This document shows, one piece after another, positions 47,366-49,102 of a stretch of DNA of 64,000 nucleotides. The position numbers were made by a program, and so were the translations under genes. The notes under the pieces are model-generated. The model was not told the origin of the DNA, made no database searches, and saw only the letters and a program-made list of their open reading frames with translations. Position 1 is the stretch's first letter. Each line of letters starts with the position of its first letter. Source of the stretch: Candidatus Saccharimonadota bacterium (GTDB lineage: Bacteria; Patescibacteriota; Saccharimonadia; Saccharimonadales; Saccharimonadaceae); NCBI GenBank assembly GCA_017509895.1, contig JAFWOH010000001.1, positions 1,454 through 65,453 on the forward strand, written 5' to 3'.

Positions 47366-47491
47366 AGGAATATTATAAGATAGGTTTTAATAAAATGGAA
47401 TATCTCTTTAGGCTTTAGCATGAGCGTTATTGACTTTTTTGATAAAGTGTTGTATAATTAAAGTAAGAAACTTGAAGGGGAGTTCATTAAA

Positions 47492-47821
47492 ATGCCCGGC
47501 GGGGCAAAACGCAGAGAGGGGGACAAAATGGGGACTTCGAAATTAATGTATTATGGCTTGGGAAACGGGCCAAGAGAAGTTAATTGCTACTATGCTGAGG
47601 AAGAAGAAATTCCTCAAGACGAAATTCAGATAGTGGCAAGTCCTCAAGTTGCTGGGGTTATGAAGAAGTTGTTAATTTATACGCTCATAATCTTAGCTGG
47701 TTTTATCGATTTAGCTTTAGGGCTTTTATTGCTCGTAAGAATAGGGGTTTGGCCGATATTTATTTGGGCCTTCTTTAATGCCTTAGAGTTTTATCTGATT
47801 ACCGAGGCGGCGCTCTTCTAG
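47492..47821 (+). CDS. Small membrane protein with two C-terminal TMs (alternative start at 47528)
   Basis: TTGACT-N17-TATAAT promoter; G-rich SDs before both ATGs. Confidence 0.6.
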   Translation: MPGGAKRREGDKMGTSKLMYYGLGNGPREVNCYYAEEEEIPQDEIQIVASPQVAGVMKKLLIYTLIILAGFIDLALGLLLLVRIGVWPIFIWAFFNALEFYLITEAALF

Positions 47822-47882
47822 CGCCGCTTTTTTAGTATGGCTTGTGTATTGACAAAAGCCGTAAAGTGTAATAGACTATATC

Positions 47883-47924
47883 TGAGGGCGACTTGGTGCT
47901 GAACTGTGCCAAGCCGAGCCCTCA
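47883..47924 (+). ncRNA. Candidate small hairpin RNA, copy 1
   Basis: TTGACA-N17-TAGACT directly upstream; 32/42 identical to copy 2 with covarying pairs; followed by TTTT. Confidence 0.65.
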
Positions 47925-47972
47925 TTTTGATGCAAATTAAAAAGAACCTTTGACGGTTATTTGTATTCGTGA

Positions 47973-48014
47973 TGGGGGGTTGGCCTCGCTCAGTTAAGAA
48001 CCAGGTCGCCCCCA
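47973..48014 (-). ncRNA. Candidate small hairpin RNA, copy 2
   Basis: TTGACG-N17-TAATAT promoter whose -35 lies in the last codons of the nuclease gene; homologous to copy 1. Confidence 0.65.
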
Positions 48015-48034
48015 TTATTGTAATATTACCATAT

Positions 48035-48448
48035 CTATTTCGTGACGTCAAGTAGCCGGCCGCTTTTTTCTATGATTAGCATTCGGCGGACTTGGCCACC
48101 GGTTTTGAACATATTTATAAGTTGTATTTCTACTTTGTCTGCATTATTTTTGATGAATCTTAGGTCGAAAATGATTTTAGAAGCTTGTCTAGAGGCTTCG
48201 CGGAAACGGTTTTTAATTGTGTTTCGATTTGCGCTAATTGGTGTTTTTACTTCCCATATTGATCCCATGATGAAGATATCTGGATTTTTAGCCTTTTTAA
48301 TACCAGTGGGCTTAATTAGCTCGATGTTCATACCAAAAAGCGTTAAGTAAGAAAAAGTTTCGTTCTCGTTAGCCTCGGACTTGACTCCGTTTTTATTTAT
48401 GTAGCCAATTTTGTTTTTCTTCGCTTTCGGTATTTCCCTTATTTGCAT
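48035..48448 (-). CDS. Stand-alone CdiA-CT-like PD-(D/E)xK nuclease (putative tRNase toxin domain)
   Basis: KNPD-x8-WEVKTP...NTI...ASRQA..IIFD pattern; no secretion domain and no adjacent immunity ORF. Confidence 0.7.
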   Translation of the reverse strand: MQIREIPKAKKNKIGYINKNGVKSEANENETFSYLTLFGMNIELIKPTGIKKAKNPDIFIMGSIWEVKTPISANRNTIKNRFREASRQASKIIFDLRFIKNNADKVEIQLINMFKTGGQVRRMLIIEKSGRLLDVTK

Positions 48449-48503
48449 GAGATTATTCTAACATAAAAAGAGTCTATTGTATAGACTGCTAAACGGTAGC
48501 TTA

Positions 48504-48688
48504 TTAGCATAAACAGTATTGACTTTTTGGGGTAAGCGTGGTATAATGTATGTGTAGTTTAAGTGAGGTGTTCACGAGACTAGTACCTTAAAAGCGATTA
48601 GAGAAGTTTCATATTCTCGCTTTTTGTGTGATGGCCTTGTGGCAATAATTTCTTCTGCCGGCGGGCATTATACGCAGAAGGAGGGTAT
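48504..48688 (+). promoter_or_regulatory. Promoter + conserved structured leader, copy A
   Basis: Homologous to 58958-59146 (minus strand) from upstream of the -35 to the ATG. Confidence 0.8.
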
Positions 48689-49102
48689 ATGAAGAATTTT
48701 GAAGTTAGTATAATCAGCTATGAAGTGAGTCCCAGTTTTGATCCGCGGTTTGCCCGGAACGGTGGAGGCTATGAGCAGCCTACTATAGAGGGTGAGATCA
48801 GCTGGGATGGCTGTGACGAGCCCATGGAGTTCGTGATAGACGATACTTCATGTGGGGAGTTTGGTAGCCGTTATTCAGTTTCAATCTTCGGTGGTCCGGC
48901 TGAGCTCTGCGGGCAATATTCTACCAACGGGATTGACTTTAATGGAGAGCTTCCAGATGAGTCAAGTTTCAAATGGAGTGAGGAGCTTGAAGAGCTTCGG
49001 GAAGTCTTTGAGAAGGCCACTCGGTTTTGGTTTTATACCGAGGAGGAGTTGAAAGAAGACGACGAGGATGATTTTGAAGAAGGGGGTGACGAAGAAAACT
49101 AA
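48689..49102 (+). CDS. Highly acidic hypothetical protein
   Basis: SD AAGGAGG; about 38 D/E against 9 K/R; terminator AAAAGCGG...CCGCTTTT follows. Confidence 0.7.
   Translation: MKNFEVSIISYEVSPSFDPRFARNGGGYEQPTIEGEISWDGCDEPMEFVIDDTSCGEFGSRYSVSIFGGPAELCGQYSTNGIDFNGELPDESSFKWSEELEELREVFEKATRFWFYTEEELKEDDEDDFEEGGDEEN

What the first reader, a model, noticed from the sequence alone, without database searches (positions are those of the whole stretch)
47849..48448. Orphan CdiA-CT-like nuclease followed by two convergent, separately promoted, covarying 42-nt hairpin RNAs: candidate RNA-antitoxin or decoy system
Seen: copy 1 (+, 47883-47924) is TGAGGGCGACTTGGTGCTGAACTGTGCCAAGCCGAGCCCTCA and copy 2 (-, 48014-47973) is TGGGGGCGACCTGGTTCTTAACTGAGCGAGGCCAACCCCCCA. 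They are 32/42 identical, and six of the ten differences form three covarying pairs (3:40 A-U/G-C, 11:30 U-A/C-G, 16:25 G-U/U-A). Each sits just behind its own sigma70 promoter (TTGACA-N17-TAGACT; TTGACG-N17-TAATAT), and the second -35 lies in the last codons of the nuclease gene. The hexaloops differ at one base (UGAACU vs UUAACU). The nuclease has no delivery domain and no immunity ORF. Known: CdiA-CT PD-(D/E)xK domains of this type cut tRNA and normally need an immunity protein; type III TA systems use RNA antitoxins; DUF3800 RNA motifs are gene-associated small RNAs. Inference: the hairpins may neutralise the nuclease as tRNA-like decoys, with copy 1 acting as an orphan or second-specificity antitoxin.
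Basis: partly seen in the sequence, partly recalled or inferred. Interest (0 to 1): 0.85.

Follow-up and report, generated by a model that had tools for sequence, protein, structure and literature searches.

The report
Small nuclease gene with cognate hairpin RNA
A free-standing toxin-type nuclease gene in a gut Saccharibacteria genome is always followed by its own separately promoted ~45-nt structured RNA, a pairing that recurs in several bacterial phyla and most likely represents an undescribed toxin/RNA-antitoxin module.

Summary

Comparative data go well beyond the finding. All 37 stand-alone CdiA_C homologues tabulated have the same layout. They come from Saccharibacteria, Atopobiaceae, an Elusimicrobia genome and a Lachnospiraceae MAG. 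In that layout an extended -10 promoter sits 6-8 nt before the ATG, implying a leaderless mRNA. A second promoter starts at a fixed offset before the stop codon. A bipartite hairpin with an asymmetric internal loop follows, usually with a U-run.

The hairpin covaries strongly (10 of 14 pairs compensatory). Its type follows the protein clade, and one genome carries two different protein/RNA pairs. There is no conserved protein partner. No intact nuclease gene lacks the RNA, whereas RNAs occur beside frameshifted, truncated or vanished nuclease genes.

Window copy 2 is the cognate RNA of the gene. Copy 1 is the leftover RNA of a different nuclease clade that still sits there in a syntenic relative.

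The best reading is an RNA antitoxin that acts on the protein (type III-like). This is unproven. tRNA mimicry and antisense action found no support. Nothing matches in Rfam, and no paper on the pairing was found.

The parts
48035..48448 (-). Gene for a 137-aa stand-alone CdiA_C-type PD-(D/E)xK nuclease (candidate toxin). Invariant residues E28, D57, E66, K68, Q88, D95; pI 10.3.
   Evidence: ORF. Pfam PF18451 E 4.6e-13. PDB sequence match 4g6v_A. AF2 model pLDDT 91.4, Foldseek top hit 4g6v_A with E 6e-6 and TM 0.66-0.68. Invariant residues. pI.
48455..48483 (-). Promoter of the nuclease gene: TATACA-N17-TAGAAT with TG extension. The -10 ends 6 nt before the ATG, so the mRNA is predicted to be leaderless.
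   Evidence: Promoter scan. The same -10-to-ATG spacing of 6-8 nt is seen in about 18 homologous loci.
48023..48051 (-). Promoter of hairpin RNA copy 2: TTGACG-N17-TAATAT, TG-extended. The -35 is embedded in the codons for the C-terminal L-D of the nuclease.
   Evidence: A -35-like hexamer starts exactly 17 nt before the end of the stop codon in 22 of the 37 tabulated modules, and 23 nt before it in six more: five type-B modules and L059.
47973..48014 (-). Hairpin RNA copy 2, the cognate RNA of the adjacent nuclease clade. It has a 6-7 bp outer stem, a 5'-GA / 3'-CCAA internal loop, an 8-bp inner stem with a G.G mismatch, and a UUAACU loop.
   Evidence: Fold. CM R1 68.6 bits. Covariation. The same inner-stem type occurs with the same protein clade.
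47934..47958 (-). Weak terminator-like hairpin AACCGUCAAAGGUU followed by CUUUUU. It is the probable 3' end of the copy 2 / nuclease transcripts, because copy 2 itself has no U-run.
   Evidence: Read from the sequence. Other loci whose hairpin lacks a U-run also carry a second terminator.
47849..47877 (+). Promoter of hairpin RNA copy 1: TTGACA-N17-TAGACT.
   Evidence: It lies within the 170-nt segment (copy 1 and its flanks) that is 97% identical in L003.
47883..47928 (+). Hairpin RNA copy 1 plus UUUU. It is an orphan RNA whose cognate nuclease (clade 6) is present, convergent, in the syntenic locus L003 but absent here.
   Evidence: Fold. CM R1 58.4 bits. L003 comparison.
47415..47458 (+). 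First copy of a 44-nt promoter-containing direct repeat (D1) that bounds the variable island.
   Evidence: A metagenome contig joins 47467 to 48573.
48504..48547 (+). Second copy of D1 (77% identical), at the other edge of the island.

Best explanation
The locus is a two-gene toxin/RNA-antitoxin module. The toxin is a stand-alone, basic, 137-aa PD-(D/E)xK nuclease of the CdiA-CT(Bp1026b) tRNase family, made from a leaderless mRNA. The second gene starts from a strong promoter built into the last codons of the first and yields a ~45-80-nt RNA that is essentially one bipartite hairpin. I propose that this RNA binds the nuclease directly and keeps it inactive, as in type III toxin-antitoxin systems. 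The asymmetric internal loop (5'-GA / 3'-CCAA) and the adjoining helices are the most conserved part, so they are the likely recognition element. The RNA would thereby take the place of the CdiI immunity protein that such nucleases normally need. Copy 2 serves the resident nuclease. Copy 1 is the surviving RNA of a different nuclease clade that was replaced at this hypervariable site. Shown: the fold and family of the protein, the structure and covariation of the RNA, the fixed promoter geometry, the obligate and clade-specific linkage, and the decay series. Inferred: transcription of the RNAs, toxicity of the protein, its RNA (tRNA) target, and direct RNA-protein inhibition.
For: (1) Protein: Pfam CdiA_C. 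The only significant structural neighbour is 4g6v_A. The D...ExK residues are invariant. PF18451 members Bp1026b and SitA3 are tRNases that need immunity proteins (PMC9990079, PMC9086364).
(2) No conserved neighbouring ORF was found in 21 loci.
(3) RNA: 26 distinct type-A sequences are 90.7% paired, with 10 of 14 pairs compensatory and 0/500 shuffles reaching this. G-U pairs and the promoter/U-run fix the strand.
(4) Linkage: every protein-first locus has the promoter-plus-hairpin directly after the stop. In the 37-module table the -35 sits at a fixed offset and the spacer is 17 nt.
(5) Specificity: hairpin subtype follows protein clade. A paralogous clade with ~27% identity has a different hairpin in the same layout. 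One genome carries both pairs 0.8 kb apart (L042/L061).
(6) Adjacency survives inversion of the RNA gene within one clade: L033, L042 and L054 are co-directional, L034 and L046 convergent.
(7) Asymmetry: no intact nuclease gene lacks the RNA. Intact RNAs occur with a frameshifted gene (L023), an internally deleted gene (L047), an N-truncated gene (L034), remnant genes (L039, L040) or no nuclease gene at all (L007, L030, L037, L041, L044).
(8) Dosage: the RNA promoter in most loci has both a -35 and an extended -10, and the Elusimicrobia locus has three tandem RNA copies. The toxin mRNA is leaderless.
(9) Proteins are basic, pI 9.7-11.3.
Against: There is no experimental datum of any kind. Transcription is supported only by a few read-length contigs in metatranscriptomes that may contain DNA. 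None of the structural hallmarks of known type III systems is present: there is no ToxN-like toxin and no repeat array upstream of the toxin. Correlation of RNA type with protein clade is also expected from simple co-inheritance. Each genome showed one exact-pattern match, and several RNAs stand alone with intact promoters, which would also fit an RNA with a function of its own. The hairpin plus U-run is also what an ordinary terminator looks like.
Confidence: 0.5

Rival explanations
1. The RNA is not an inhibitor but a partner or substrate of the nuclease. Either the two form a ribonucleoprotein in which the hairpin is a cofactor or scaffold needed for activity or stability, or the nuclease's job is to process this RNA.
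For: There is obligate, clade-specific linkage and a fixed gene geometry. The proteins are basic. The conserved internal loop looks like a protein-binding site.
Against: The hairpin has no variable guide-like segment; all variation is compensatory. A cofactor should decay once the protein is lost, yet intact, promoter-bearing RNAs persist next to dead or absent nuclease genes. The protein family is otherwise known only as toxins.
Confidence: 0.15
2. The hairpin acts mainly on expression of the nuclease gene rather than on the protein. It would be a shared terminator/3'-UTR element plus a 3'-end-derived sRNA. That sRNA could act as an antisense RNA where it is convergent (type I-like, as in txpA/RatA or par of pAD1), or by titrating an RNase or RNA-binding factor where it is co-directional.
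For: In L003, L034 and L046 the RNA gene is convergent and its U-run abuts or overlaps the nuclease stop codon, so the transcripts would be complementary. Most hairpins are followed by a U-run. Promoters inside the upstream coding region are known for 3'-UTR sRNAs (own knowledge: DapZ, MicL).
Against: In the co-directional majority the RNA has no complementarity to the nuclease mRNA beyond chance: the longest runs are 8-12 nt, within the shuffled range. The same RNA subtype is used in both orientations, which argues for a trans-acting, structure-based role. The conservation of the GA/CCAA loop while the inner stem is completely replaced is more than a terminator needs.
Confidence: 0.15
3. The hairpin RNA is an independent, single-copy small RNA with its own cellular role. 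The nuclease gene would then be a selfish or hitch-hiking gene that repeatedly lands beside it.
For: Each of 29 Saccharibacteria genomes gave exactly one exact-pattern match. Some copies lie between housekeeping genes without any nuclease: tig-rpsL in L037, next to pgk in L039, upstream of secY in L044.
Against: Different nuclease clades carry different RNAs in the same geometry, in several phyla. Two different pairs occur in one genome. The RNA promoter is written into the nuclease's last codons at a fixed offset over divergence down to ~25% identity, which means long co-evolution as one unit. L039 still shows a nuclease remnant. The window itself has two RNA copies.
Confidence: 0.1
4. It is a DNA-level feature: an inverted-repeat mobile element (MITE), a recombination site, or merely a pair of terminators between convergent genes.
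For: The two copies form a 43-nt inverted repeat 46 nt apart. They lie in an island that is missing in a related strain.
Against: Only two copies exist in 64 kb, and other loci have a single copy, so the inverted-repeat arrangement is peculiar to this window. G-U pairs are tolerated on one strand only. A promoter precedes each copy at conserved spacing. The upstream + strand gene already has its own terminator at 47804-47830.
Confidence: 0.03

Closest known systems
Type III toxin-antitoxin systems (ToxIN, CptIN, TenpIN)
   Same: A protein toxin is paired with a small structured non-coding RNA instead of a protein antitoxin. The two are tightly linked genetically. The RNA is made in excess. One homologous locus (Elusimicrobia, L070) even has three tandem RNA units.
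   Different: The toxin fold is PD-(D/E)xK, not ToxN/AbiQ-like. The RNA is normally a single hairpin, not a repeat array. It lies downstream of the toxin gene with its own promoter, instead of upstream separated by a terminator. There is no evidence that the toxin processes the RNA. Neither Pfam nor PADLOC assigns the protein to a ToxN-type toxin: the only Pfam hit is CdiA_C, and the only PADLOC hit is a weak PD-T4-9_C match at E 0.019.
CdiA-CT(II) Bp1026b / CdiI and other PF18451 polymorphic toxins (e.g. SitA3)
   Same: The nuclease domain is the same by HMM and by predicted fold, with acidic and lysine catalytic residues conserved.
   Different: Here the domain is a complete free-standing protein with no delivery region. 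At least ~140 clusters of such 125-140-aa proteins exist. There is no CdiB or secretion partner and no CdiI-like immunity gene. A structured RNA occupies the position where an immunity gene would be expected.
Convergent type I systems that share a terminator (par/Fst RNAI-RNAII of pAD1; txpA/RatA) - from my own knowledge
   Same: In a minority of loci (L003, L034, L046) the RNA gene is convergent with the toxin gene and overlaps its 3' end.
   Different: The toxin is a nuclease, not a small membrane peptide. Most loci are co-directional and show no antisense complementarity.
3'-UTR-derived sRNAs with a promoter inside the upstream coding region (DapZ, MicL) - from my own knowledge
   Same: The layout matches: the promoter lies in the last codons of the upstream gene, and the sRNA shares or constitutes the terminator.
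   Different: Those sRNAs carry single-stranded seed regions and act by base pairing with Hfq. This RNA is almost entirely helical, with a conserved internal loop, and co-evolves with the protein encoded upstream.

Membership tests
Pfam CdiA_C (PF18451), PD-(D/E)xK tRNase toxins of the Bp1026b type | Profile match above the curated cut-off | tested here: met
   49.6 bits against a cut-off of 26.6, E 4.6e-13. All homologues are pre-annotated PF18451.
Pfam CdiA_C (PF18451), PD-(D/E)xK tRNase toxins of the Bp1026b type | Fold like the solved CdiA-CT Bp1026b structure | tested here: met
   AF2 model pLDDT 91.4. Foldseek top hit 4g6v_A, E 6.3e-6, TM 0.66/0.68, the only hit with E <= 0.001.
Pfam CdiA_C (PF18451), PD-(D/E)xK tRNase toxins of the Bp1026b type | Conserved acidic/lysine catalytic residues | tested here: met
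   E28, D57, E66 and K68 are invariant in A1, A3 and A5. The Bp1026b catalytic set is E187, D214, D223, K242 (PMC9086364).
Pfam CdiA_C (PF18451), PD-(D/E)xK tRNase toxins of the Bp1026b type | tRNA cleavage activity and growth inhibition | not testable with these tools
   Needs expression and an in vitro assay.
CDI / polymorphic toxin system | Toxin domain at the C-terminus of a large delivered protein, with a secretion partner | tested here: not met
   The ORF is 137 aa. The best 150 relatives are almost all 125-140 aa. Only rare MuF-type phage fusions were seen.
CDI / polymorphic toxin system | Cognate immunity protein gene immediately downstream | tested here: not met
   No conserved neighbouring ORF in 21 loci. 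The downstream space is filled by the promoter and hairpin.
Type III toxin-antitoxin | ToxN/AbiQ/CptN/TenpN-type endoribonuclease toxin | tested here: not met
   Only CdiA_C is found by Pfam. The only PADLOC hit is a weak PD-T4-9_C match, E 0.019, 13.3 bits.
Type III toxin-antitoxin | Antitoxin is an array of direct RNA repeats upstream of the toxin gene, separated from it by a terminator | tested here: not met
   There is a single hairpin downstream with its own promoter. The exception is three tandem units, still downstream, in L070.
Type III toxin-antitoxin | RNA binds the toxin protein and inhibits it | not testable with these tools
   Inferred only from linkage, specificity and the decay asymmetry.
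Type I toxin-antitoxin | Antisense complementarity of the RNA to the toxin mRNA | tested here: not met
   In 11 co-directional loci the longest complementary runs are 8-12 nt, within the range of shuffled RNAs. Only the convergent loci L003, L034 and L046 would overlap.
Any Rfam family (including DUF3800 motifs, tRNA, known sRNAs) | Covariance-model match | tested here: not met
   At gathering threshold the window shows only two tRNAs elsewhere. An E<=10 scan of 47700-48700 gave only chance hits. Seven related loci gave nothing at the hairpins.
tRNA-like element / tRNA mimic | Recognisable tRNA architecture or sequence similarity to cellular tRNAs | tested here: not met
   ARAGORN finds nothing there. 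The Rfam tRNA model gives no hit. The best local alignments to 17 tRNAs are no better than for shuffled hairpins. Three-dimensional mimicry was not tested.
Plain intrinsic terminator | GC-rich stem directly followed by a U-run, with nothing else conserved | tested here: inconclusive
   Most family members have the U-run. Copy 1 has only UUUU and copy 2 has none. A dedicated promoter and a conserved internal loop go beyond a terminator.
MITE / inverted-repeat DNA element | Terminal inverted repeats present as a unit in many copies, strand-symmetric | tested here: not met
   There are two hairpins only in 64 kb and single hairpins in all other loci. G-U pairs are strand-specific.

The most novel reading that the evidence does not exclude
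Stand-alone CdiA_C-type PD-(D/E)xK (t)RNases and their downstream hairpin RNAs form a new, phylogenetically widespread class of toxin-antitoxin system. It is found in Saccharibacteria, Atopobiaceae, Elusimicrobia and probably Lachnospiraceae, and spans hundreds of protein clusters. A ~45-nt structured RNA acts as a pseudo-substrate or active-site plug, replacing the protein immunity factor of polymorphic toxins. RNA specificity co-evolves with the toxin, and orphan RNAs act as anti-addiction or cross-immunity elements.
Probability: 0.45. Interest if true: 0.9.

Novelty: new variant of a known kind. Interest (0 to 1): 0.8.

Why it matters
RNA antitoxins that act on the toxin protein are known from only three related families, all with ToxN-like toxins and repeat arrays. 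A second, structurally unrelated solution would show that RNA-based neutralisation of protein toxins evolved more than once: a restriction-endonuclease-fold nuclease held in check by a single small hairpin.

It would also give a function to a large set of 'hypothetical' 125-140-aa proteins. The profile search found 1234 clusters at 50% identity with E <= 1e-3.

It would add a new structured RNA family to the very sparsely annotated Saccharibacteria/CPR genomes.

It would provide a compact protein-RNA recognition pair with natural orthogonal variants.

The occurrence of the module in both gut Saccharibacteria and Atopobiaceae also hints at gene exchange within that community. That Atopobiaceae are hosts of these epibionts is my conjecture.

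Tried and rejected
- **Rfam.** A gathering scan of the whole window, an E<=10 scan of the region and an E<=1 scan of seven related loci found no family for any hairpin.
- **tRNA/tmRNA detection and tRNA similarity.** Nothing was found. A resemblance of the clade-3 loop (GGUUAAGUCC) to a T-arm lacking one base is not above chance.
- **Antisense (type I) pairing with the nuclease mRNA.** It is not above shuffled controls. A first attempt with duplexfold timed out.
- **A protein immunity partner.** Clustering of all ORFs within 1.5 kb of the nuclease in 21 loci gave no conserved small neighbour. The acidic 137-aa ORF at 48689-49102 (pI 4.05) looked like a candidate, but it has no Pfam, NCBIfam or PADLOC hit and is not conserved beside homologues.
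- **PADLOC and NCBIfam.** No defence or TA family matches the nuclease.
- **K-turn reading of the GA/CCAA loop.** I rejected this by inspection. The critical G.A at the 1b.1n position would be A.A in most members.
- **Small ORF in the RNA.** An AUG at the 5' end is not conserved and the reading frame varies (sequences).
- **SRP-RNA idea.** This was prompted by 'one per genome'. The domain IV motifs are absent, and I dropped it once different RNA types were seen with different protein clades.
- **Expression evidence.** The runs holding the Atopobiaceae locus (type not on record) gave only flat contig depth. Metatranscriptomes give only a few 105-185-nt contigs.
- **Plasmid, phage and viral collections.** The plasmid and phage collections were searched by tblastn with one distant stand-alone homologue, P0246. 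There was no plasmid hit, and the phage hits were MuF or minor-capsid fusions plus one unannotated hypothetical protein. The viral-contig scan with A3 gave only one short 21-residue match.
- **Literature.** No paper describing this pairing was found.
Full report
**What is in the window.** Copy 1 (+ 47883-47924) and copy 2 (- 48014-47973) are 32/42 identical. Six of the ten differences form three compensatory pairs. Both fold into the same bipartite hairpin: a 6-7-bp outer stem, a 5'-GA / 3'-CC(A/G)A internal loop, an 8-bp inner stem and a hexaloop. Energies are -23.7 and -21.0 kcal/mol (z -5.1 and -3.0). The complementary strands fold worse because several pairs are G-U. A degenerate 24-nt core matches only these two places in 64 kb, with 0 expected. 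Each copy is preceded by a promoter-like site: TTGACA-N17-TAGACT at 47849-47877 on the + strand, and TTGACG-N17-TAATAT with a TG extension at 48051-48023 on the - strand. The latter's -35 lies inside the last codons of the ORF 48035-48448.

**The protein.** The ORF is a 137-aa protein that matches Pfam CdiA_C (PF18451) at E 4.6e-13. Its best PDB sequence match is 4g6v_A. An AlphaFold2 model with pLDDT 91.4 has 4g6v_A as its only significant structural neighbour, with E 6e-6 and TM 0.66-0.68. 4G6V is the CdiA-CT(II)/CdiI complex of Burkholderia pseudomallei 1026b. PF18451 is the family of that Mg2+-dependent tRNase and of the Myxococcus toxin SitA3 (PMC9086364 and PMC9990079). E28, D57, E66, K68, Q88 and D95 are invariant among homologues, so the enzyme looks active. 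The protein is basic, with pI 10.3. The organism is a gut/rumen Candidatus Saccharibacteria, Nanosyncoccus-like.

**The hairpin is a real RNA family.** A pattern scan of one genome per species found the copy 2-type core in 29 Saccharibacteria genomes, once in each. Twenty-six distinct sequences align without difficulty. On the two-helix structure, 90.7% of cells are paired and 10 of 14 pairs show changes on both sides. No shuffle in 500 reaches any of the five measures, and sliding the partners destroys the signal. A covariance model built from this alignment finds exactly one strong hit per locus and two in the window. Rfam has no family for it, at gathering or at permissive thresholds.

**The RNA is tied to the nuclease gene.** I then started from the protein instead. 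Every homologue retrieved from genomes and metagenomes has the hairpin 11-24 nt after its stop codon, on the same strand. The promoter geometry is strikingly constant. A -35-like hexamer (usually TTGAC-N) begins exactly 17 nt before the end of the stop codon, so it is encoded by the C-terminal (L/I)-D of the protein. The spacer is 17 nt and the -10 is usually TG-extended. More distant homologues at 36-37% identity keep the arrangement with variant hairpins.

A paralogous clade (type B) at about 27% identity carries a different hairpin. It has an 11-bp outer stem, a one-base 5' bulge, a 7-bp inner stem with a GUA loop and a 3' AGC bulge. The layout is otherwise the same, with the -35 at -23. 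Type B is 96.8% paired with four compensatory pairs in seven sequences. One genome (L042 = L061) carries a type-A pair and a type-B pair 0.8 kb apart, each protein with its own RNA type.

Homologues in other groups again have a promoter in or just after the last codons, followed by a bipartite hairpin with an asymmetric internal loop. These are the cultured actinobacteria Olsenella sp. kh2p3 and Tractidigestivibacter scatoligenes SK9K4, 'Ca. Ruminimicrobiellum ovillum' (Elusimicrobia), a Lachnospiraceae MAG and further unnamed contigs. The Elusimicrobia locus has three such hairpins in tandem. In L072, L075 and L076 the outer stem and the GA/CCAA loop of type A are kept while the inner stem and loop are entirely different. 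This points to the internal loop region as the conserved functional core.

A profile search of 1.84 billion representative proteins finds 1234 clusters with E <= 1e-3. The best 150 are almost all 125-140 aa, so the free-standing form is a large family. Only rare fusions to phage MuF-type head proteins were seen.

**Other regularities.**
- The nuclease genes look leaderless. In about 18 loci an extended -10 box ends 6-8 nt before the ATG. In the window it is TAGAAT, ending at 48455, with the ATG at 48448.
- No neighbouring ORF is conserved, so there is no candidate immunity protein.
- Hairpin subtype follows protein clade. Within clade 3 the RNA gene is co-directional in some genomes (L033, L042, L054) and convergent in others (L034, L046), with its U-run abutting the stop codon. 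Adjacency has therefore been kept through an inversion.
- There is a decay series. Intact gene plus RNA is the commonest state (16 of the 30 type-A Saccharibacteria loci, by my tally). Others show a frameshifted gene (L023), an internally deleted gene (L047), an N-terminally truncated gene (L034), short remnants (L039, L040), and finally RNA genes with an intact promoter and no trace of the nuclease (L007, L030, L037, L041, L044). The converse, an intact nuclease gene without the RNA, was not seen in any of the 37 modules tabulated.

**The two copies in this window.** L003 is syntenic with the window up to 47415 and again over copy 1 and its promoter, where identity is 97% over 170 nt. There, copy 1 is followed immediately by a convergent nuclease gene of another clade (39% identity), and copy 2 is absent. 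So copy 2 is the cognate RNA of the resident gene, and copy 1 is what remains of a different pair. The whole segment is variable. It is bounded by a 44-nt promoter-containing direct repeat (47415-47458 and 48504-48547, 77% identical). One metagenome contig joins 47467 to 48573, skipping 1105 nt.

**Mechanism.** The pattern is what is expected if the RNA protects the cell from the protein: obligate and clade-specific linkage, no protein partner for a member of a toxin family that otherwise needs one, a strong promoter for the RNA against a leaderless mRNA for the protein, multiplied RNA units in one lineage, and loss of the protein tolerated but never loss of the RNA.

Base pairing with the nuclease mRNA is not the mode of action in the co-directional majority, because complementarity is within the range of shuffled controls. 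The RNA is almost completely helical, with a conserved internal loop, which suits protein recognition. I therefore favour direct binding and inhibition of the nuclease, functionally a type III toxin-antitoxin system (confidence 0.5).

The module nevertheless fails the structural definitions of the known type III families. The toxin fold differs, the RNA is not a repeat array, and its position is different. It would be a new family rather than a member.

Three-dimensional mimicry remains open.

The rivals are set out with their tests in the Rival explanations section: an RNP or cofactor role, regulation through the shared 3' end (antisense in convergent loci), an independent sRNA with a hitch-hiking nuclease gene, and a DNA-level element.

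**Limits.** Nothing here shows that the RNAs are made. The only hints are read-length contigs in runs labelled as transcriptomic that cover the nuclease gene, the inter-hairpin region, and in one case a hairpin variant. Toxicity, substrate and RNA binding are all inferred. The correlation of RNA type with protein clade is partly what co-inheritance alone would give. The count of 'one RNA per genome' rests on an exact pattern, so it misses divergent copies.

**Novelty.** I found no Rfam family and no paper describing the pairing.

Noticed in passing
window 47415-47458 and 48504-48547; junction 47467/48573: A 44-nt direct repeat (77% identical), each copy holding a near-consensus promoter (TTGACT-N17-TATAAT), brackets the segment with the 109-aa ORF, both hairpins and the nuclease gene. 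A contig in run X16 joins 47467 to 48573 with 15 unrelated bases between, so the ~1.1-kb segment is absent in a related strain. Whether this is an insertion or a deletion was not resolved.
   Followed up: partly
window 48468-48484: A perfect palindrome AGTCTAT-tgt-ATAGACT overlaps the -35 region of the nuclease promoter. The half-site ATAGACT also forms the -10 region of the copy 1 promoter (47870-47877). It may be an operator for an unknown repressor, or chance.
   Followed up: no
window 47492-47821 (+); L003 2880-2960: A 109-aa predicted membrane protein (weak holin-like Pfam hit, E 0.07) has a strong promoter and RBS. In L003 most of it is deleted, leaving a 25-aa hydrophobic ORF (MEYLFRFIWIFFNALEFYLITEAALF) with the same C-terminus and terminator. 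Its function and any relation to the module are unknown.
   Followed up: partly
window 48548-48688 and 48689-49102 (+): A ~140-nt leader follows the second D1 promoter and precedes a very acidic 137-aa ORF (pI 4.05) with no family match. It is not conserved next to the nuclease in other genomes. L003 has a lipoprotein-like gene behind the same promoter and leader.
   Followed up: partly
about 18 homologous loci, e.g. L017 986, L021 4001, L055 2501: The nuclease genes have an extended -10 box 6-8 nt before the ATG and no Shine-Dalgarno sequence, so they are predicted to be leaderless. Neighbouring genes in the window do have SD sequences.
   Followed up: partly
L070 1905-2200 (Elusimicrobia, 'Ca. 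Ruminimicrobiellum ovillum'): Three tandem, diverged copies of the hairpin RNA follow one nuclease gene. This is the only array seen. The next genes include an LPD3-domain protein and a putative AbiC, suggesting a defence island.
   Followed up: no
L067 / L068 2483-2960 (Olsenella sp. kh2p3, Tractidigestivibacter scatoligenes SK9K4): Cultured Atopobiaceae carry a type-B-like nuclease (41% identity to the Saccharibacteria type B) with a hairpin + U-run, next to a tRNA-Gly gene. These are possible material for experiments and possible evidence of gene transfer within the gut community. That Atopobiaceae host these Saccharibacteria is my conjecture.
   Followed up: partly
L018 961-1014: Directly after the cognate hairpin lies a second, degenerate hairpin with the same architecture (AGGGC-AA-CCUAGC...GCUAG-AUUAA-GCCCU + U-run; CM 21.8 bits). 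It may be a decayed duplicate now serving as the terminator.
   Followed up: no
L030 (oriented sub-region): hairpin followed by a 226-aa ORF: An orphan type-A hairpin is followed, after a new promoter, by a gene that from its sequence motifs looks to me like an NYN/LabA-type (PIN-like) nuclease; no family search was run on it. This may be coincidence, or an RNA reused with another nuclease.
   Followed up: no
L048 5845-6402: The nuclease gene has lost its normal stop and reads on into the hairpin, adding 13 residues. The RNA promoter and hairpin are intact.
   Followed up: no
several loci, nuclease mRNA positions ~107-114 (codons of the conserved LFGF motif): In 4 of 11 loci the longest complementary run to the RNA's conserved CGAGGCCAA falls on the same spot of the mRNA (UUGGUUUCG, with G-U pairs). 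It is not above shuffled controls, so probably chance, but it recurs.
   Followed up: partly
P0208, P0245; phage hits H1-H4: A minority of CdiA_C domains are fused to the C-terminus of MuF-like phage head proteins (Mycobacterium and Streptococcus phages). My reading is that these are phage-delivered polymorphic toxins, a different deployment of the same nuclease.
   Followed up: no
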